Origin: Kagunavirus LF7074P1
Length of the DNA: 41,071 bases
Sequence record: OZ035758.1
Direction: 5' to 3' (one strand)
Under the pieces are notes generated by a model. That model worked only from the letters and a program-made list of their open reading frames with translations, had not been told where the DNA came from and searched no databases. Of this stretch, positions 8,988 to 16,215 are shown piece after piece; position 1 is the first letter of the stretch, and every line of letters starts with the position of its first letter. The position numbers were made by a program, and so were the translations under genes.

Positions 8988-9400
8988 TGGGCTACTTTGA
9001 GGACTTAACAAAAGCGTTCGATGTTCCGCTGGTAGCCTTCGGAACCGCCAACGGCATCAAGGTCGCGCTTGAAAACATCTACGCGCCGACGTCAACCGAT
9101 ACGCCATATCTGGCAAGTTACATGTTACTGGCGGATACCGAGCAAGCAGATTTGTTCTTCACGGAACAACGCGCGGGTGTTTATCAGGTCGACATTAACT
9201 ACGCATCGGTGAAAGGTAGCGCGCCAATCAATAAAATGGCAGACTTACTTAACACGGCATTCAAAGCAGGTAAGTCATTTTCTCGTAACGACATCTGCGC
9301 CGAGGTTCAATCGGTTAGCCTGGGGCCGCTGATTGTAGAAAACGGATGGGCCAAACGACCATTGTCAATTAACTTTATTGCATTCACCAAGAGGCTGTGA
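8984..9400 (+). CDS. Putative tail terminator / tail completion protein
   Basis: 138-aa ORF translationally coupled, immediately upstream of major tail protein gene. Confidence 0.4.
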   Translation: MMGYFEDLTKAFDVPLVAFGTANGIKVALENIYAPTSTDTPYLASYMLLADTEQADLFFTEQRAGVYQVDINYASVKGSAPINKMADLLNTAFKAGKSFSRNDICAEVQSVSLGPLIVENGWAKRPLSINFIAFTKRL

Positions 9401-9402
9401 AT

Positions 9403-10569
9403 ATGGCTACAACTCCTTTTAAGGGCGCGAATACTGCGCAATTCTATGTGGCAGAAACTACCCCTGGCGTAACACCGACTAACCCGGTCTGGTCGCCATT
9501 GCGTAACACAGGTGGCGTTCCTGCCATTACCCGCGACACGCTGACCTCCAACGAACTGGACGGCAGCCGTGAAACTACGTCAATCCGCACCGGTAACAAG
9601 CAGGTTAGCGGAGAATACGCTATTGAGCTTAGCTCGAAAAGCCAGGACGACTGGCTGGCGGGTGCTTTAGGCTCTACATGGCAATCCGGTAGTTCTCTGA
9701 CCGGGCTATCAATTACCGTCGCGCCTGCAGGCAAGACCTTTACCCGTGCCGAAGGTAGCTTTATTTCTGACGGCGTTGAAGTGGGCGACCTGATTGCGTT
9801 TACCGACTTAACCGGTGACAACGCAAAACCGTTTATCGTAACTGCAGTAGAGGCGCTGGTAGTGACCGGGGCGGGTATCCAGCATACCCTGACCACAGAG
9901 ACAGTAACTACCGCCGCTAAGACAGGGGATAAACTGGAAACGGGAAGCCAGTGCAAGACGTTCTCTATTCTCACCTGGTACAAAGGCCAGTGCGGCGGGA
10001 CTGACGCGTACACACTAACCAAAGGCGTGGAAGTTTCTGGTTTTACCATCGAACAGGCTGTTAACGCTATGGTAACTGGCAGCTTCCCGTTCATCGGTCG
10101 CAGTCAGGAGATTCTCACCACGCAGCCGTCTGGTTCTGATTTCTCCTCTGTTACGTTTGGTGACGAGCCATTCTCCTCGGTCGATGTTTCTGTGTTCGAC
10201 GGTTCTACGCCGTTGCGTTGCGACAGCCTGACCATCACCAACGACAACAGCGCGTCCGCACAGTTCGAACTCGGCAACACTAACGTAGCGTTTGTGGAGC
10301 GTAGCCGAGCAGCTAACACCTTCTCCATCTCCGGTAAGCTGTACGACATGGCAATGATTCAGAAGTTTATCAACGAGCAGCAGGTGGAGATTAACTCTAT
10401 TCTGGCTGGGGTAAACGGGGCTATGTCTTTCAGTTTGAAACGTGCAGAACTTACGGCGGTTACACCTGAGATTGGAGGACCTGAGTCAATCACTCAGTCT
10501 ATTGAAGGCCAGGCTACTGGCAACCAGTACCAGTCGTCTATTGTTATTCAGCGTATCACATACGCATAA
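9403..10569 (+). CDS. Major tail protein
   Basis: ~389 aa Thr/Ser/Gly-rich; RBS gagg 8 nt before ATG 9403; followed by strong terminator. Confidence 0.6.
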   Translation: MATTPFKGANTAQFYVAETTPGVTPTNPVWSPLRNTGGVPAITRDTLTSNELDGSRETTSIRTGNKQVSGEYAIELSSKSQDDWLAGALGSTWQSGSSLTGLSITVAPAGKTFTRAEGSFISDGVEVGDLIAFTDLTGDNAKPFIVTAVEALVVTGAGIQHTLTTETVTTAAKTGDKLETGSQCKTFSILTWYKGQCGGTDAYTLTKGVEVSGFTIEQAVNAMVTGSFPFIGRSQEILTTQPSGSDFSSVTFGDEPFSSVDVSVFDGSTPLRCDSLTITNDNSASAQFELGNTNVAFVERSRAANTFSISGKLYDMAMIQKFINEQQVEINSILAGVNGAMSFSLKRAELTAVTPEIGGPESITQSIEGQATGNQYQSSIVIQRITYA

Positions 10570-10573
10570 AACT

Positions 10574-10598
10574 AAGGCCCCGAAAGGGGCCTTTTTCT
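10574..10598. terminator. Bidirectional intrinsic terminator between convergent genes
   Basis: aggcccc-gaaa-ggggcct hairpin flanked by A-run upstream and T-run downstream. Confidence 0.75.
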
Positions 10599-11152
10599 TA
10601 CAAACCTAATTTTAAAGCAATGTCTATAACGTTCGATTTAACGTCACCTGGTAGGATGTAGGTGTCGTAATCTTTTACACCGCTAACATCATACAGATAA
10701 CCGCGGCTGTCCCCCTCAAACGTATAGCCTTCTCGGTGCAGGCGAACGATTCTTACATCATGACCCGCGGCGACGATAGGGGCCACTTCGCTGGCGAACC
10801 CGCCGTCGGACACTACAAAAACTTCGTTGCCGTCGGGCAAGTTTTCAGCAAGATACTTACCGAAATAATCACTACCAAGTACCGGTTTAATGAATTGCTC
10901 AGATATAGCAATCATGAACTGACGCCGCGACAAGCCATTAAGGAAGCCTTCTGGCTTTTCTTTCCGCGCTCGGTCGTCGTAGCCGTCGAGAAACTCGTGG
11001 TAAGCACCCGGGCCTAACGCTGCCAGAGCAATATTGAACATTGGATTCTTGAAACTGGTAGTTCCCTTCGCAAAGCCCATCTCTACCAGCGCCATAGCAA
11101 GTGTGTCTTTCCCGCAACCCGCAGGGCCATTAAGAATAATTACCATAGCCAT
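10598..11152 (-). CDS. P-loop kinase, dNMP-kinase-like (could alternatively be a polynucleotide 5'-kinase)
   Basis: 184 aa; Walker A NGPAGCGKDT near N-terminus; overall arrangement reminiscent of T4 gp1-type kinases; start overlaps upstream stop. Confidence 0.6.
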   Translation of the reverse strand: MAMVIILNGPAGCGKDTLAMALVEMGFAKGTTSFKNPMFNIALAALGPGAYHEFLDGYDDRARKEKPEGFLNGLSRRQFMIAISEQFIKPVLGSDYFGKYLAENLPDGNEVFVVSDGGFASEVAPIVAAGHDVRIVRLHREGYTFEGDSRGYLYDVSGVKDYDTYILPGDVKSNVIDIALKLGL

Positions 11153-11637
11153 TACTTATCACTCCCGTGCGATTTTAAGTGTGTAGAGTTCCCGTTACAG
11201 TCGTATTCAGTAACCGCGTGAGTGGTTATACCGAGGCCACGGAAATGCTTTATTACCGCTGGCGAGTCGTCGAATGCGCACAAGATTCTTTCCAGCCCGA
11301 TAGTACGTAGCACCTCTTCCTTAATTACGATGTCTTTTCTGTTGTCGTGTTTGCTGCGCATGATTAACTGATAAAATTCGACGCGGTGGCGCTGCAACCA
11401 CATTCTGGTTTCTTTTTCCGCGTCATCACTACGGCCTGTTAAGATAATAACGGCATAGCGACGATTAAGGGCGTTACACAGTTCGATGTTATCTTTAATG
11501 GGTGCATCGTCTTTGCACGCCATGTTAAATGGTTTCCACGCCCAGGTTTCGCCGTAGTTATCTTTCGGCAGCAGGTGTAAACGATGAGCACCATCTGCCA
11601 ATGTCCCGTCTAAATCGAAAATCACAATATCTTTCAT
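11152..11637 (-). CDS. HAD-family phosphatase resembling the 3'-phosphatase domain of T4 polynucleotide kinase
   Basis: 161 aa; VIFDLDGTLA, ILTGR, DNRKDIVIKEE, AFDDSP blocks line up with the T4 Pnk C-terminal domain as recalled from memory. Confidence 0.65.
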   Translation of the reverse strand: MKDIVIFDLDGTLADGAHRLHLLPKDNYGETWAWKPFNMACKDDAPIKDNIELCNALNRRYAVIILTGRSDDAEKETRMWLQRHRVEFYQLIMRSKHDNRKDIVIKEEVLRTIGLERILCAFDDSPAVIKHFRGLGITTHAVTEYDCNGNSTHLKSHGSDK

Positions 11638-12770
11638 CCAAGCATCTCCGGTGAAATAGTTAAACGTGCGACCTCGCCATATTCGGCGCTATAAGTAATT
11701 ACGTTTGCACTGCGGCCCGACATCCACCCACCGCGGGAGGCATATGCATCTTTAGCCGCGAGAGTGCGGTGTTGCTCAACAATCATGTTACGGCTTTCTA
11801 CAATCTTTTGGTGGTGCAGGTGACCCACGTGGGCGTAGCTGTAAACACTCTCTCCGAACGCTTTGCGGAACTTGGCGATCATAACCGGTTCGATAGCGTC
11901 GAATCGTGCTTTATGCCCATGATGGAAGAACAGCGTCGTTTTGCCGTGTTGCACCATCTTGTAAACATCCGGCGACGTATCGACGAACACACGCGGCTCA
12001 TTGTCGTACAGCGTACTAAACATCTCAGCTAACCAAATCATTCCGCTTTCGTCGTGGTTACCTTGCACGATAAGCAAGCGAACATTTTTATGTTTAACGA
12101 GAGCCATATCAATGACACGGCGGACCATACGAATCATGTAGCGTACAAGTTTCTGATAGCGGGTGTCAGCGTCAAGAACATGGCCACTTGCGGGTGTAAC
12201 GGCATCCAGACTATCGAAGTGCGCGAAGTCACCTAGCAGGTTAATAACTCCTGTTCCCGCATCTGGCGCTTTCTGAAACGCTGCGTCGAACCATCGAGAG
12301 AACAGGTCTTCTGCGATTTTCATATCCCAGTCGTCGCCGCTCTCGTCGGCCCATGCCAGCATACCGAGATGAAAATCAGATACAGTGTAAAGATTGAGTA
12401 GCTTGTCGTCACGTTTGGTGCGCACGGCTTTAACCGGCGCAACGGGGGTAATCTCTGACTTCATGCCCTCAATTACGGCTTTCATAGCCTCTAACTGTTT
12501 CTCTTTATCCGGCTCGGAAATCACCCACGTCATCACCTCTTCGCCATTAGCCTTTACGCAAGCGGATATTCTTTTAGCAGAGAACCCTTCCGCTATGCGT
12601 TTGGATATTACTGGGTCGTTCCCGTGACCTATGCCCTTCTTGGCTAATCGTGCTTTACGGATACGAATTACGCGGTCTGAGATGCCGTATTTACGGGCGA
12701 TGTCTATATTCCTCATCCCGGCGCTCAATTCTTCCTGTAACTGTTCGTCGGTTATTTTCTTCTGGGCCAT
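11634..12770 (-). CDS. Calcineurin-like metallophosphoesterase with N-terminal helix-turn-helix-like domain
   Basis: Five metallophosphoesterase motifs in order (SDFHLG, LLGDFAHFD, VQGNHDES, FHHGH, HVGHLHH); ~100-aa N-terminal region with HTH-like IDIARKYGISDRVIRIRKARL; start ATG 12770 with RBS GAGGA. Confidence 0.6.
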   Translation of the reverse strand: MAQKKITDEQLQEELSAGMRNIDIARKYGISDRVIRIRKARLAKKGIGHGNDPVISKRIAEGFSAKRISACVKANGEEVMTWVISEPDKEKQLEAMKAVIEGMKSEITPVAPVKAVRTKRDDKLLNLYTVSDFHLGMLAWADESGDDWDMKIAEDLFSRWFDAAFQKAPDAGTGVINLLGDFAHFDSLDAVTPASGHVLDADTRYQKLVRYMIRMVRRVIDMALVKHKNVRLLIVQGNHDESGMIWLAEMFSTLYDNEPRVFVDTSPDVYKMVQHGKTTLFFHHGHKARFDAIEPVMIAKFRKAFGESVYSYAHVGHLHHQKIVESRNMIVEQHRTLAAKDAYASRGGWMSGRSANVITYSAEYGEVARLTISPEMLG

Positions 12771-12808
12771 GCTTACTTCCTCGTGTTTAGGATTTGTCCT
12801 ATAGTAGC

Positions 12809-13000
12809 CTACTTCTCTTTCACGTTCGAGTTGCAAGCCCAGATTAAAATAAAGACCCACGGCAGCAGAACCCAACCAAGAAACAGATTAGCCATGAATA
12901 TCGCTAACTTCGCTTTATGGTTACGGAAGTACGCAACCAGGAAAGGCGCGAAATAAGCGAGCAGTGCAAACAGAATTAAGGAAACTGGTAAACTGGACAT
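12809..13000 (-). CDS. Small two-TM membrane protein, superinfection-immunity (Imm)-like
   Basis: 63 aa; YFAPFLVAYFRNH...NLFLGWVLLPWVFILIWA resembles the Imm_superinfect family consensus; first gene after promoter P3; ATG 13000 has RBS aagggg (alternative ATG 13015). Confidence 0.5.
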   Translation of the reverse strand: MSSLPVSLILFALLAYFAPFLVAYFRNHKAKLAIFMANLFLGWVLLPWVFILIWACNSNVKEK

Positions 13001-13030
13001 TTTAAACCCCTTCATTGTTGGTGTAAGTGA

Positions 13031-13059
13031 ATAGTACCCTATTATATTGGGGTGTGCAA
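13031..13059 (-). promoter_or_regulatory. Sigma70-like promoter P3 (TTGCAC-17-TACTAT) driving the minus-strand cassette
   Basis: Minus strand reads TTGCACaccccaatataatagggTACTATtca, near-identical to promoter P1 at 35039. Confidence 0.6.
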
Positions 13060-13167
13060 GTAATGTGATAGAATAAGTTTGCGCCTAGTGTCGCACACGA
13101 AAAGCGGGTGGTTCCCGTCTGGCGCATTTATCGTTAACCTGTAACCTCTTAACCAAAGGATTAAAGA

Positions 13168-13584
13168 ATGAAACTTTCTGATTTTTATTTCGAAGAGAAA
13201 GCACTGGTAGGCAAGAAGATGCCCATTCTGCTGCCAAACGGCGAAGACTCCGGTGAATGGCTTAACGTTGTAAGTCCCGATGCGGATGTCGCCGTTAAAG
13301 CGGGGCGTGCTTTCATTATTGCGTACCGTCGCGGGTTGGCGCGTTTCGAAGAACTGGAAAAAGCCGCCAAAGAATCCGGCGACTATACTGAATATAACCT
13401 GGCTATTAACGAACTGGCGGAAGACCTCAACCGGCAACTCGCGGCAGAAGTCGTAAACGGCTGGAGCTTTGATGAGCCTTTCTCTAAAGAAGCATTTAAC
13501 AAATTGCTGGACCAGTTCAAGGCATTAGGCACACAGGTAGCAGCGTTCCATAACGCTGAGCGCAAAGCATTACAGGAAAAGTAG
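13168..13584 (+). CDS. Tail assembly chaperone (gpG-like)
   Basis: 138-aa acidic ORF with RBS aagga, immediately upstream of tape measure gene. Confidence 0.5.
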   Translation: MKLSDFYFEEKALVGKKMPILLPNGEDSGEWLNVVSPDADVAVKAGRAFIIAYRRGLARFEELEKAAKESGDYTEYNLAINELAEDLNRQLAAEVVNGWSFDEPFSKEAFNKLLDQFKALGTQVAAFHNAERKALQEK

Positions 13585-13616
13585 ACGCGCTGTACAGGTT
13601 CGCCACCTATGAGTTT

Positions 13617-13949
13617 GTGGATAAGCATAAAATCAGAGAGTTTGATTCTATAGCCGACGGACACGAACAGGCGCTTATCGCGATGGGTGTAATCGATAAG
13701 AAAAAACGTGCAGCGCGACGGGGTGGGCCAGAATGCCCGCCCCTTTTTATATCCACCTTCGAGACGTACTGCGACATTAAGTTTACGCGACACGTGCGCG
13801 AGGACGCTGTAGTATTGTTCGCAAGAGAATCCGTTACGTGGCAAGACCTGAAAGCCTATCTCGATGTTACGCAAAAACAGCTTAGCCTGTTCGAGATAGA
13901 CATTATCATGGGCTTAGAAGCAATCTTTGAAGGTAGAAATCATGGCTGA
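13617..13949 (+). CDS. Second tail chaperone ORF, possibly expressed as a -1 frameshift extension (gpGT-like)
   Basis: The -1 frame is open from 13560 to 13949; no RBS or ATG for independent initiation (track start is GTG 13617); the tape measure start overlaps its 3' end. Confidence 0.4.
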   Translation: MDKHKIREFDSIADGHEQALIAMGVIDKKKRAARRGGPECPPLFISTFETYCDIKFTRHVREDAVVLFARESVTWQDLKAYLDVTQKQLSLFEIDIIMGLEAIFEGRNHG

Positions 13950-16215
13950 TACCGCTAGCTTGATCGTACGAGTATCATCGACCGGCGTCGATAAAACCAC
14001 ATCACAACTGAACGGGCTTACCAAAGCCGCGGGGGCCGCCGCCGCTGCCGTTGTCAGTCTGGAAACTGCCAAACAGGTGTTCAGTGCGCTGGTGGACTCC
14101 CAGCGCAACTTCGATAAGCTGAACTCCGGCCTCATCACAATGACCGGGAGCGCCGAGAACGCTGCTAAGGCATTCAGCGTCCTGCAACAGTTCGCAAAAG
14201 AAACTCCGTATGGCCTCAATCAGGCGGTAGAGGGGTTTACCAAGCTCGTGGCGCTAGGTCTTAACCCCAGCAAAGAGGCGTTAATATCCTACGGCAACAC
14301 CGCGGCGGCTATGGGTAAAGACCTTAATCAGATGATTGAGGCGGTTGCCGACGCCAGTACCTTTGAGTTTGAGCGACTGAAAGAGTTCGGTATCAAGTCT
14401 TCCCAACAGGCGGATACCGTTTCGTTCACGTTCCGCGGCGTCACCACCACGGTTAAAAAGAACTCCGAAGAGATTCAGAAATACCTGCTAAACATCGGCA
14501 ACACCGATTTCGCCGGGGCGATGGAGACGCGCTCTAAGACGTTAGACGGTCAGTTGTCGAGCCTGGCGGACTCCTTTGATGGCCTTGTACTTGCGGTAGC
14601 GCAATCCGGTTTCGGCGACGCCGTAGGTGAGCAAGCCGCGAAGGCAGAAGACGCTATTTCGGCACTCACCGACGCCATTGCGTCTAATGAGATAGCCGCC
14701 ACGCTCCAGGATTGGGTGACACTGTTCAATGAATCATTCAAGTTTATTTCTGATGCCTTAAACGACCTGGCATACGATACCGAGGACAAATCCGCGGATA
14801 TGTCAGACTCGCTGGGTACTATACCGGATGCTATCCGTGAATGGTTGCCTGACATCCAGCAGACGTTTCACGAGGTTATTGCGTGGTTCCAGCGCATTGA
14901 CGATTACGCCGTAGCGTTAGGTCAGACCCTCGCAGACGTGTTTGATCCGAGCAAAACGGCAGCACTCACATTTAAAAACCTGACCGCAGAAGCTGACGCC
15001 GCATACGCCGCCAGCATAAAACGCGCCGAGGCCGAATCACAGGCCATCACCAACAGGTCTAAGCAGCGTAAGAAAGAAATTGAGGAACAGCGCAAGCAGT
15101 ACAACGAGCGTAAGAAGCAAGAAATAGACTTAGCCAGCCTTGTTAATAAAAAGGGCGGAACTGGTGGGGCAGGAAATGCCAACGACAAAGACGCGAAAGC
15201 CGCCGCTAAGAAAGCGGAGCAATTGCGCAAACAAGCCCAGGATTACCTCGACACTTTGGCCCGTCAGAACAACGACGAGTTAAAGGCTATCGACGCGCAG
15301 GAACAGCAGAAACTGGCTAAGGCAAAAGAGTTCTACAGCCAGGGCGCGTTGTCCCTGAAAGAATATGAACAAGCTAAAACAGCTATCGTCCTCGAAGCCG
15401 GGCAAAAACGACAAGATGAACTGGATAAACGCCAGAAAGAAGCCCAGGAAAAGCAACAGAAAGGTGACGACTTCATGGCTCAGATTATGGGTCAGAACGC
15501 TACTGAGCTTGAGCTTCTCGACATCCAGGAACAGCAGAAACTGGCGGTAGCGGATAAGTACCGCGAGCAGGGTTTTATTAGCGAGAAGCAGTATCAGGCC
15601 GCTCTTAACGCCATCAACGAGCAATACGCAACCAAACGTGCCGATGCAACGGCAACGGCCTTTGGTAACATGGCCTCAAACATCGGGTCTGCGTTGGGTG
15701 AGGCTTCTGGCGCGTACAAGGCATTCGCTATCGTACAGGCAACTATCGCCACGTACACCGCAGCTATTGAGGCGTACAAGTCAACGGCAGCTATCCCTGT
15801 AGTTGGCCCGTTCCTGGCCCCTGTAGCCGCTGCCGCTGCCGTTGGTGCAGGTATGGCGCAGGTTTCCGCTATCCGGTCCGCGCGTGAACAGGGCGGACAG
15901 TTATCCGCAGGGCAGGCTTCCACCATCGCAGAACGCGGTAAACCAGAAGTTATTATGCCGGCTGGCGCATCTCGTGTTCGCACAGCACAGCAGATGAAAG
16001 AAATTATGGGGCAAAACGGGTCTTCTTCCGGCCCGTCTAATGTTACTATCGTAAACAACACGAGTTCTCAAATCGGCAACGTATCCACTGAGCAAGATGA
16101 CGAAGGCCGTTTGCGAATCATCATCGAGGAGCAGGTGGCTGCCTCTTTGCAGAATAGCAACAGCAAGATTAGCAAGGCCCGCAAAGCCACAAGAAATGCG
16201 CCGGGGTTTAAATAA
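13942..16215 (+). CDS. Tail tape measure protein
   Basis: ~757 aa, Ala/Gln/Lys-rich helical repeats (DIQEQQKLA twice), long coiled-coil character; canonical position. Confidence 0.8.
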   Translation: MADTASLIVRVSSTGVDKTTSQLNGLTKAAGAAAAAVVSLETAKQVFSALVDSQRNFDKLNSGLITMTGSAENAAKAFSVLQQFAKETPYGLNQAVEGFTKLVALGLNPSKEALISYGNTAAAMGKDLNQMIEAVADASTFEFERLKEFGIKSSQQADTVSFTFRGVTTTVKKNSEEIQKYLLNIGNTDFAGAMETRSKTLDGQLSSLADSFDGLVLAVAQSGFGDAVGEQAAKAEDAISALTDAIASNEIAATLQDWVTLFNESFKFISDALNDLAYDTEDKSADMSDSLGTIPDAIREWLPDIQQTFHEVIAWFQRIDDYAVALGQTLADVFDPSKTAALTFKNLTAEADAAYAASIKRAEAESQAITNRSKQRKKEIEEQRKQYNERKKQEIDLASLVNKKGGTGGAGNANDKDAKAAAKKAEQLRKQAQDYLDTLARQNNDELKAIDAQEQQKLAKAKEFYSQGALSLKEYEQAKTAIVLEAGQKRQDELDKRQKEAQEKQQKGDDFMAQIMGQNATELELLDIQEQQKLAVADKYREQGFISEKQYQAALNAINEQYATKRADATATAFGNMASNIGSALGEASGAYKAFAIVQATIATYTAAIEAYKSTAAIPVVGPFLAPVAAAAAVGAGMAQVSAIRSAREQGGQLSAGQASTIAERGKPEVIMPAGASRVRTAQQMKEIMGQNGSSSGPSNVTIVNNTSSQIGNVSTEQDDEGRLRIIIEEQVAASLQNSNSKISKARKATRNAPGFK

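What the first reader, a model, noticed from the sequence alone, without database searches (positions are those of the whole stretch)
13560..13620. Possible stop-adjacent programmed -1 frameshift producing a gpG-gpT-like tail chaperone fusion
The chaperone ORF ends CAG GAA AAG TAG (13573-13584). The -1 frame is open from 13560 through 13949, and the downstream ORF has no RBS and no ATG. A P-site Lys-tRNA slipping from AAG to the overlapping AAA at the stop would continue as ...ALQEK-VDALYRF... to 13949. Tail chaperone frameshifting is conserved in siphophages, but this site (GGAAAAG-UAG) is not the canonical X_XXY_YYZ heptamer, so the mechanism would be atypical.
Basis: partly seen in the sequence, partly recalled or inferred. 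Interest (0 to 1): 0.5.

Follow-up and report, generated by a model that had tools for sequence, protein, structure and literature searches.

The report
Known tail-chaperone frameshift site
The phage's two tail-assembly chaperone reading frames are very probably joined by a ribosome slipping back one base on A_AAG just before the stop codon, but this fusion is already annotated in GenBank for the identical phage K1G sequence, so it is correct yet ordinary.

Summary
A 138-aa chaperone ORF (13168-13584) ends CAG GAA AAG TAG. The -1 frame is open from 13560 to 13949. It has no conserved start codon or Shine-Dalgarno, and it encodes a Phage_TAC_18 domain.

The window is a Kagunavirus, 100% identical here to phage K1G. 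The exact 260-aa fusion (...ALQEK|VDALYRF...) is already deposited as ADA82267.1 / YP_009168804.1, so the feature is known.

Comparing 154 related loci (120 unique junctions, 37 clusters below 80% nt identity) sharpens the mechanism:
- The invariant signal is NNA_AAR followed directly by a stop: 120/120 junctions (TAG 79, TAA 40, TGA 1).
- The codon before it varies (GAA, GCA, GTA, TCA, CAA, GGA, AAA). Some relatives carry canonical G_GGA_AAG or A_AAA_AAG at the same place.
- In some relatives the 0/-1 overlap is only 7 nt, which pins the shift to the last two codons.
- Codon periodicity switches to the -1 frame right after the stop.
- No conserved downstream RNA structure was found.

This fits the known A_AAG tetramer / NNA_AAG class of tRNA-Lys slippage with an adjacent stop. 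It is non-canonical as a heptamer but not mechanistically new. No protein-level evidence exists here.

The parts
13168..13584 (+). gpG-like tail assembly chaperone ORF (138 aa, 0 frame), ATG start preceded by AAGGA, ending AAG TAG
   Evidence: Pfam Phage_TAC_4. phrog_15027 positions 1-138. Annotated as a tail assembly chaperone in K1G and fKuEco01.
13575..13581 (+). Shift site G_GAA_AAG. The essential core is A_AAG (13578-13581), where tRNA-Lys re-pairs from AAG to AAA.
   Evidence: A at 13578 and AAR at 13579-81 are invariant in 120/120 unique junctions. Overlap is only 7 nt in L056, L058, L139 and L147. G at 13575 is present in 76/76 GAA-type junctions across six different preceding codons.
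13582..13584 (+). 0-frame TAG stop directly abutting the shift codon; likely slow-to-decode A-site stimulator ('shifty stop')
   Evidence: A stop immediately 3' of A_AAR occurs in 120/120 unique junctions: TAG 79, TAA 40, TGA 1. The window's genes overall use TAA 26, TGA 15, TAG 6.
13581..13949 (+). -1 frame gpT-like extension (122 codons, GTA GAC GCG CTG ... TGA), translated only as the C-terminal part of the 260-aa G-T fusion, join(13168..13581,13581..13949)
   Evidence: Pfam Phage_TAC_18, E=1e-18. phrog_15027 positions 139-259. Amino-acid conservation and -1 frame codon periodicity begin right at the junction, upstream of any start codon. The exact fusion is in NCBI.
13942..16215 (+). Tape measure protein gene. 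Its ATG (13942) overlaps the end of the T frame (ATGGCTGA).
   Evidence: Pfam TMP_3 at E=1e-9, 38.8 bits, just below the curated cut-off of 41. Annotated in K1G.

Best explanation
This is a programmed -1 ribosomal frameshift in the tail assembly chaperone gene of a K1G-type Kagunavirus. Most ribosomes translate the 138-aa G-like chaperone and terminate at TAG 13582-13584. A minority slip back one base on A_AAG (13578-13581), where the single E. coli tRNA-Lys (anticodon UUU) re-pairs from AAG to AAA. They then read GTA GAC GCG CTG... in the -1 frame to 13949, producing a 260-aa G-T fusion.

The stop codon directly after the slip codon most likely supplies the pause that an RNA structure provides at other sites. 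In this genome the preceding codon GAA with a G before it (G_GAA_AAG) would let tRNA-Glu re-pair near-cognately on GGA, with a G.U at the middle position.

By analogy with lambda G/GT, the G part would bind the tape measure protein and the T part would recruit the tail tube protein, at a low GT:G ratio.

Shown here: the ORF architecture, homology, conservation of the signal, and coding in the -1 frame from the junction onward. Inferred: that slippage actually occurs, its efficiency, which ribosomal site the slipping tRNA occupies, and the protein functions.
For: 1. Position and homology. The ORF pair lies directly upstream of the tape measure gene. It hits TAC Pfam families and a single PHROG that spans both halves.
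2. No independent start. Across 79 unique relatives the first NTG in the -1 frame ranges from +8 to +323 nt, and the first ATG (usually at +101) lacks an SD in 70 of 71 cases.
3. Coding begins at the junction. K138, V139, A141 and L142 are invariant in fusions as low as 31% identical. Least-conserved positions are 0-frame third positions upstream (0.35 bits). They become -1-frame third positions from +3 to +34, before GTG 13617 (0.70 vs 1.39 and 1.11 bits), and stay so beyond.
4. Conserved signal. A_AAR plus an adjacent stop is found in 120/120 unique junctions and 37/37 clusters below 80% nt identity.
5. Canonical heptamers at the same position in relatives: G_GGA_AAG (L023, L113) and A_AAA_AAG (Shewanella phage 3/49 and others).
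6. The overlap shrinks to 7 nt in some relatives.
7. Literature. A_AAG is the best -1 tetramer in E. coli (PMC4066793). NNA_AAG sites are used by IS1222 and occur in B. subtilis cdd (PMC5009743).
8. The same join is deposited for K1G, K1H, fKuEco01, fPoEco01, fFiEco02 and Shewanella 3/49.
Against: There is no protein-level or reporter evidence for this phage group, in the sources searched or in this work. Tetramers without a stimulator gave only about 0.15% frameshifting in reporter assays, barely above background (PMC4066793). No conserved downstream structure or properly spaced upstream SD was found. The required efficiency therefore rests on the untested stimulatory effect of the adjacent stop and its context. 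tRNA-Glu has a restricted-wobble anticodon, which (from memory of Licznar et al. 2003, not readable here) should disfavour NNA_AAG slippage. The related sequences are not phylogenetically independent, so the counts overstate the number of independent events.
Confidence: 0.88

Rival explanations
1. The downstream ORF is a separate gene, initiated independently at GTG 13617 (or CTG 13590, as some pipelines annotate). It would give a free T-like protein of about 110-119 aa and no fusion.
For: Several public records annotate it this way: Jersey gp27, SETP13 gp26 and Bas74_0026. A GTG exists at 13617.
Against: The position equivalent to 13617 is G in 54 and A in 25 of 79 unique relatives, so the GTG is often ATH (Ile). 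The first NTG position is not conserved and has no SD, except at a TTG at +8 that falls 12 nt after the slip site's own AGGA. The 11 codons between the stop and 13617 are conserved as protein and show -1 frame periodicity. phrog_15027 models the two halves as one 259-position protein.
Confidence: 0.05
2. Termination-reinitiation coupling: ribosomes terminate at TAG and restart nearby in the -1 frame on a non-canonical codon, yielding separate G and T polypeptides.
For: The stop lies exactly at the frame junction in every relative. That geometry is also typical of coupled genes.
Against: No start-like codon lies within a few nucleotides of the stop in the window (GTA, GAC, GCG, CTG). The invariant element is A_AAR, a slippery tetramer that reinitiation does not need. 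Relatives carry full canonical slippery heptamers at the same spot.
Confidence: 0.04
3. RNA polymerase slippage on the A run deletes or adds a base in a fraction of transcripts, so the fusion arises from edited mRNA rather than from ribosomal slippage.
For: The site contains an A run. Some distant relatives have A6-A7 runs (AAAAAAG, AAAAAAA) where transcriptional slippage is conceivable.
Against: In the window and in most relatives the run is only four A's (GGAAAAG) or three (GCAAAG, GTAAAG). By established knowledge this is far below the 8-9 or more residues generally needed for productive transcriptional slippage. The invariant adjacent stop is unexplained by this model.
Confidence: 0.01

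Closest known systems
Phage K1G ORF22A/ORF22B (ADA82266.1 / ADA82267.1; RefSeq YP_009168805.1 / YP_009168804.1), with the same joins in K1H, fKuEco01, fPoEco01 and fFiEco02
   Same: The nucleotide sequence is identical over 13100-14000. The deposited 260-aa fusion protein is letter-for-letter the one derived here. It is annotated as a two-piece joined CDS.
   Different: Nothing differs in sequence. The records are annotations only, and no experimental support was found in the papers searched.
Bacteriophage lambda G / G-T frameshift (G_GGA_AAG; Levin et al. 1993; Xu, Hendrix and Duda 2004, 2013, 2014, as cited in PMC5009743)
   Same: A -1 shift near the 3' end of a chaperone gene just upstream of the tape measure gene. 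tRNA-Lys slips AAG to AAA. No strong RNA stimulator is known. A low-abundance fusion is made. The window's site differs from lambda's heptamer by one base (GGAAAAG vs GGGAAAG), and a close relative (L023) has the lambda heptamer.
   Different: The P-site codon cannot re-pair cognately (GAA to GGA). The stop codon abuts the slip codon directly rather than lying further downstream. The proteins fall in other Pfam families (TAC_4 / TAC_18) than lambda gpG/gpT. A reverse-strand gene module separates the tube gene from the chaperones.
Burkholderia phage KL1 gp18/gp19 (PMC3483164)
   Same: [quoted passage not shown] The paper reports KL1 capsid and tail proteins as similar to those of K1G/K1H.
   Different: Canonical heptamer GGGAAAC and a TGA stop. 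An extra tail gene lies between the chaperones and the tape measure gene.
A_AAG tetramer / NNA_AAG hexanucleotide -1 sites (IS1222 G_CGA_AAG; B. subtilis cdd A_CGA_AAG; synthetic series; PMC5009743, PMC4066793, PMC10861913)
   Same: Single tRNA-Lys slippage on A_AAG with a variable preceding NNA codon. This is exactly the pattern of variation seen across this chaperone family (GAA, GCA, GTA, TCA, CAA, GGA, AAA).
   Different: Those cases rely on an upstream SD-like element or a downstream pseudoknot. Here neither is conserved, and an adjacent stop codon is the only invariant flanking feature.
E. coli dnaX (A_AAA_AAG)
   Same: The same slipping tRNA and the same second codon. The A_AAA_AAG heptamer is used at the homologous position in the Shewanella 3/49 branch of this family.
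   Different: dnaX uses an upstream SD-like sequence and a downstream hairpin, and it shifts at about 50%. No such stimulators are present here.

Membership tests
Conserved tail assembly chaperone G/GT -1 frameshift of long-tailed phages (Xu, Hendrix and Duda 2004 class) | Two overlapping ORFs immediately upstream of the tape measure gene and downstream of the major tail (tube) gene | tested here: met
   Tube gene 9397-10569 (Phage_tube_2). Chaperone ORFs 13168-13949. Tape measure gene 13942-16215. A reverse-strand module (10598-13015) is inserted between the tube and chaperone genes.
Conserved tail assembly chaperone G/GT -1 frameshift of long-tailed phages (Xu, Hendrix and Duda 2004 class) | The second ORF is in the -1 frame and lacks its own start signal | tested here: met
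   Frame confirmed. No conserved NTG or SD in 79 unique relatives.
Conserved tail assembly chaperone G/GT -1 frameshift of long-tailed phages (Xu, Hendrix and Duda 2004 class) | Canonical X_XXY_YYZ slippery heptamer in the overlap | tested here: not met
   The window has G_GAA_AAG. Only the A_AAG tetramer is slippery. Canonical heptamers occur at the same position in a few relatives.
Conserved tail assembly chaperone G/GT -1 frameshift of long-tailed phages (Xu, Hendrix and Duda 2004 class) | The arrangement is conserved across diverged relatives | tested here: met
   120/120 unique junctions and 37/37 clusters below 80% nt identity.
Conserved tail assembly chaperone G/GT -1 frameshift of long-tailed phages (Xu, Hendrix and Duda 2004 class) | Two protein products (short abundant, long rare), both needed for tail assembly and absent from virions | not testable with these tools
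   Requires western blot or MS of infected cells, plus genetics.
A_AAG tetramer / NNA_AAG -1 frameshift motifs in E. coli | A_AAG in the 0 frame, with AAA available in the -1 frame | tested here: met
   13578-13581. Invariant in relatives: AAG 118, AAA 2 of 120.
A_AAG tetramer / NNA_AAG -1 frameshift motifs in E. coli | A stimulator (downstream structure or upstream SD-like element 10-14 nt away) | tested here: not met
   Fold z-scores 0.00 and -0.28. RNAalifold predicts 0 pairs over 24 diverse sequences. No Rfam hit. The upstream region is variable.
A_AAG tetramer / NNA_AAG -1 frameshift motifs in E. coli | Decoding by a single tRNA-Lys (anticodon UUU) with no competing CUU isoacceptor | tested here: inconclusive
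   The window encodes no tRNA. That E. coli has only tRNA-Lys(UUU) comes from the literature (PMC5009743), not from a test here.
'Shifty stop' sites (slippage promoted by a stop codon in the A site) | [quoted passage not shown] | tested here: met
   TAG at 13582-13584. An adjacent stop is present in 120/120 unique junctions.
'Shifty stop' sites (slippage promoted by a stop codon in the A site) | Frameshift efficiency responds to release-factor level or stop context | not testable with these tools
   Needs reporter assays with RF1/RF2 titration and stop-to-sense substitutions.
Lambda gpG / gpT protein families (sequence membership) | A significant match to the Pfam families that contain lambda gpG and gpT | tested here: not met
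   The only Pfam hits at E<=0.01 are Phage_TAC_4 and Phage_TAC_18. Which families hold lambda gpG/gpT is from memory. Functional analogy remains plausible, but sequence membership is not shown.

The most novel reading that the evidence does not exclude
In this chaperone lineage the adjacent stop codon may be the frameshift stimulator itself, so the G:GT ratio would be set by competition between release factor and tRNA-Lys slippage rather than by RNA structure. This would explain three patterns. First, the stop never moves from the slip codon in 120/120 junctions. Second, UGA is almost excluded (1/120, against about 32% of stops genome-wide), although UAA to UGA would be silent in both frames. 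Third, the fourth base is A or C in 118/120. A second layer would be co-adaptation of the -7 base to the wobble capacity of the P-site tRNA: G is obligatory before GAA, while the base is free before GCA.
Probability: 0.35. Interest if true: 0.35.

Novelty: already known. Interest (0 to 1): 0.18.

Why it matters
The practical value is for annotation. Many Guernseyvirinae records, including Jersey, SETP13, phiEap-2, SP-031 and recent pipeline annotations, still list the T frame as a separate gene with arbitrary start codons. The invariant NNA_AAR-stop signature gives a simple rule for annotating the join correctly.

For the biology of recoding, the family is a clean natural series. It combines one tetramer, an always-adjacent stop, a variable P-site codon and no RNA structure. 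That makes it suitable for testing how much a stop codon alone can stimulate -1 slippage. The phenomenon and this instance are both already known.

Tried and rejected
- **Downstream stimulatory structure.** Single-sequence folds of 13585-13684 and 13540-13660 are no more stable than shuffles (z = 0.00 and -0.28). RNAalifold on 24 diverse junctions predicts no pairs. Rejected.
- **Upstream 7-bp hairpin 13541-13558 (CAGCGTT/AACGCTG).** It first appeared to have a compensatory change in Bas74. Across 21 unique K1G-like segments the variable pair forms a standard pair in only 13 of 21 sequences, and the hairpin is absent outside the clade. Rejected as a conserved element.
- **Upstream SD-like stimulator.** AGGA overlaps the slip site only in CAG-GAA variants and is too close. 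The -20 to -8 region is variable. Rejected.
- **Rfam.** No match at E<=1 in 13300-13900.
- **Phage-encoded tRNA that could modulate Lys decoding.** None in the window.
- **Solved structures.** No meaningful PDB sequence match for the fusion; the only hit is E=0.005 over 33 residues to an unrelated chain.
- **Literature on experimental evidence in Kagunavirus or Jerseyvirus.** Nothing relevant found. Xu et al. 2004 and Licznar et al. 2003 could not be read.
- **Prophage relatives in bacterial genomes.** Only one locus was found, in a Taishania assembly whose junction segment is identical to that of the Jerseyvirus locus L011, so it adds no new junction type.

Full report
**What is there**

The 0-frame ORF 13168-13584 encodes 138 aa and ends CAG GAA AAG TAG (13573-13584). 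The -1 frame has a TGA at 13557-13559 and is then open from 13560 to a TGA at 13947-13949. Its first NTG is GTG at 13617 and its first ATG lies 101 nt past the stop. Neither is preceded by a Shine-Dalgarno-like motif.

The 0-frame protein matches Pfam Phage_TAC_4, and the -1 frame matches Phage_TAC_18 at E=1.1e-18. In PHROGs the two pieces match positions 1-138 and 139-259 of one 259-position family, phrog_15027 'tail assembly chaperone'. The pair lies directly upstream of the tape measure gene (13942-16215). It lies downstream of the tail tube gene (9397-10569), with a reverse-strand module in between.

**Identity of the window, and prior knowledge**

The stretch 13100-14000 is 100% identical to Escherichia phage K1G (GU196277 / NC_027993) and to several other Kagunavirus genomes in the Guernseyvirinae. 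These records already carry a two-piece joined CDS over exactly this span:
- K1G ORF22B, fKuEco01 KE1_023, K1H ORF19B, fPoEco01 and fFiEco02.
- The more distant Shewanella phage 3/49.

An exact-sequence look-up shows that the 260-aa fusion I derived (...ALQEK|VDALYRF...) is deposited as ADA82267.1, YP_009168804.1, QNO11738.1 and QNO11960.1. The feature, and even its junction, is therefore already annotated. Other records list the T frame as a separate gene with ad hoc starts: Jersey, SETP13, phiEap-2, SP-031, fSE4S and Bas74.

**Comparative test of the frameshift**

I collected related loci from annotated phages, IMG/VR, metagenomes and bacterial genomes. Among 154 loci with enough flank there are 120 unique 240-nt junction segments, falling into 37 clusters below 80% nucleotide identity.
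- **Invariant signal.** Every junction has an A, then AAR (AAG 118, AAA 2), then a stop codon with no spacer (TAG 79, TAA 40, TGA 1).
- **Variable preceding codon.** It can be GAA, GCA, GTA, TCA, CAA, GGA or AAA. Full canonical heptamers occur at the homologous position: G_GGA_AAG (L023, L113), A_AAA_AAG (the Shewanella 3/49 branch, L153, L164) and A_AAA_AAA (L161, L165).
- **Localisation.** In L056, L058, L139 and L147 the -1 frame is open for only 7 nt before the stop. The shift must therefore occur within the last two sense codons.
- **Protein conservation.** An alignment of seven fusions, down to 31% identity, has K138, V139, A141 and L142 invariant.
- **Codon periodicity.** Upstream of the junction the least conserved positions are 0-frame third positions (0.35 bits vs 0.86 and 1.06). 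Between the stop and GTG 13617 they are -1-frame third positions (0.70 vs 1.39 and 1.11), and the same holds further downstream (0.40). The -1 frame is thus under protein-coding selection from the first codon after the slip, upstream of any possible initiator.
- **No conserved start.** The position of the first NTG in the T frame is scattered from +8 to +323 nt. The base equivalent to 13617 is A in 25 of 79 unique sequences.

Together these results make independent initiation or reinitiation unlikely.

**Mechanism**

The invariant element is the tetramer A_AAG. In E. coli reporter assays it is the most shift-prone Z_ZZN motif (A_AA.G >> U_UU.C ...). It reached several percent with a pseudoknot but only about 0.15% without a stimulator (PMC4066793). 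NNA_AAG sites with a variable first codon are a described class, used by IS1222 and occurring incidentally in B. subtilis cdd. Their efficiency depends on the wobble properties of the tRNA reading NNA (PMC5009743, PMC10861913).

I looked for the usual stimulators and found none:
- Folds of the downstream 100 nt and of a 121-nt window are no more stable than shuffles.
- RNAalifold on 24 diverse junctions predicts no base pairs.
- There is no Rfam match.
- The upstream -20 to -8 region is variable.

The only invariant flanking feature is the adjacent stop codon. My best-supported model is that tRNA-Lys slips from AAG to AAA while the A site holds a slowly decoded stop, the classical 'shifty stop' situation. 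Slippage in the A site just before that, as in the NNA_AAG model, is also possible, and sequence alone cannot separate the two. A stop-adjacent slippery site has been published for Burkholderia phage KL1, a phage the paper reports as having capsid and tail proteins similar to K1G/K1H: GGGAAAC immediately upstream of the TGA stop, giving 142- and 264-aa products (PMC3483164).

**Finer patterns (suggestive only)**
1. All 76 unique junctions with GAA before AAG have G at the -7 position. The preceding codon varies among CAG, CTG, TCG, GCG, ATG and TTG. With GCA the -7 base is C, A or G. This fits a requirement for near-cognate re-pairing of the restricted-wobble tRNA-Glu on GGA (G.U at the middle position), and no such requirement for the flexible tRNA-Ala. 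That is inference, and shared ancestry inflates the counts.
2. TGA is nearly absent at this stop (1/120 unique junctions, 1/37 clusters), whereas 15 of 47 long ORFs in the window end in TGA. A TAA to TGA change would keep both the stop and the Val codon (GTA to GTG).
3. The base after the stop is A or C in 118/120. It is also the second base of a -1-frame codon, so protein constraint cannot be excluded.
4. The third positions of the next Ala and Leu codons (13589, 13592) are almost invariant within the Guernseyvirinae-like set. They vary in deeper branches.

**Function**

By analogy with lambda, G and the G part of GT would bind the tape measure protein. The T part would recruit the tube protein, with a ratio near 30:1 being critical (summarised in PMC5009743). 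This was not tested here. The proteins belong to different Pfam families from lambda's, so I claim functional analogy and not family membership.

**Verdict**

However, the feature is already annotated for the identical sequence. The mechanism also belongs to a known class: a non-canonical heptamer, but a canonical A_AAG tetramer with an adjacent stop. Interest is low.

**Side observation**

An intrinsic-terminator-like hairpin with a T tract lies inside the T frame at 13720-13752. It recurs in 33-34 of 87 unique relatives, with stem extensions that change on both sides. It is too far from the slip site (about 139 nt) to stimulate frameshifting, and Jerseyvirus genomes that keep the same slip site lack it.

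Noticed in passing
window 13720-13752 (+), inside the -1 frame T region: An intrinsic-terminator-like element: GGGGTGGGCC-AGAATG-CCCGCCCC (9 bp, 8 G-C) followed by TTTTTATATC, encoding RRGGPECPPLFIS. In 34 of 87 unique relatives a stem of at least 7 bp is kept in register, and 33 of those also have a T tract. The outer stem pairs change on both sides: GAGGGGCC/CCCCTC, AAAGGGGCC/CCCCTTT, TTAAAGGGGCC/CCCCTTAA, ACGGGGCC/CCCCGT. Synonymous-shuffle z-scores run from -1.2 to -3.9 where it is present. It is absent in Jerseyvirus, phiEap-2, SP-031 and Shewanella 3/49. It could be a partial terminator or a 3'-end stabiliser between the chaperone and tape measure genes. Its function is untested.
   Followed up: partly
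window 13582-13585 and homologous positions in L004-L171: The stop after the slip codon is TAG (79) or TAA (40) and almost never TGA (1 of 120 unique junctions). A TAA to TGA change would be silent in both frames, and 15 of 47 long ORFs in the window end in TGA. The fourth base is A or C in 118/120. This may reflect a release-factor or context preference, or shared ancestry.
   Followed up: partly
window 13575 (the base before GAA AAG) and homologues: G is present in 76/76 unique GAA-type junctions although the codon it ends varies (CAG, CTG, TCG, GCG, ATG, TTG). With GCA as the penultimate codon the same position is C, A or G. This suggests co-adaptation of the -7 base to the P-site tRNA.
   Followed up: partly
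window 13587-13592: The third-codon positions of the -1-frame Ala (GCG) and Leu (YTG) codons just after the junction are invariant or nearly so (78/79 and 79/79 unique sequences), while other Ala/Leu third positions nearby vary freely. Deeper branches use GCC. The cause is unknown; it may be 3' context or codon preference.
   Followed up: no
window 10598-13015 (- strand): A reverse-strand module sits between the tail tube gene and the chaperone genes. It comprises a 184-aa ORF, a 161-aa ORF (annotated polynucleotide kinase in K1G), a 413-aa ORF whose K1G homologue, annotated 'DNA repair exonuclease' (metallophosphoesterase in fKuEco01), spans 1131 bases, and a 68-aa ORF whose K1G homologue, annotated 'immunity to superinfection', spans 192 bases. 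It interrupts the usual tube-chaperone-tape measure order. In phiEap-2 and SP-031 only one small minus-strand ORF separates the tube gene from the chaperones.
   Followed up: no
window 13042-13437 and 13383-13874 (- strand): Long antisense ORFs of 131 and 163 aa lie opposite the chaperone genes. No record annotates them, and the conservation periodicity follows the sense frames, so they are probably spurious.
   Followed up: no
public records of relatives: L003 (Bas74), L004 (Jersey), L006 (SETP13), L007 (phiEap-2), L010 (SP-031), L011 (fSE4S): Annotation is inconsistent. The T frame is listed as a stand-alone gene with differing starts, including one that corresponds to CTG 13590 in the window. 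Sister genomes carry the joined frameshift CDS (versus 5, 6, 11, 14, 15).
   Followed up: yes
window 13541-13558: A perfect 7-bp hairpin (CAGCGTT CCAT AACGCTG) lies 20 nt upstream of the slip site. Its variable pair forms a standard pair in only 13 of 21 unique K1G-like sequences, and the hairpin is absent in other clades. It is probably fortuitous.
   Followed up: yes
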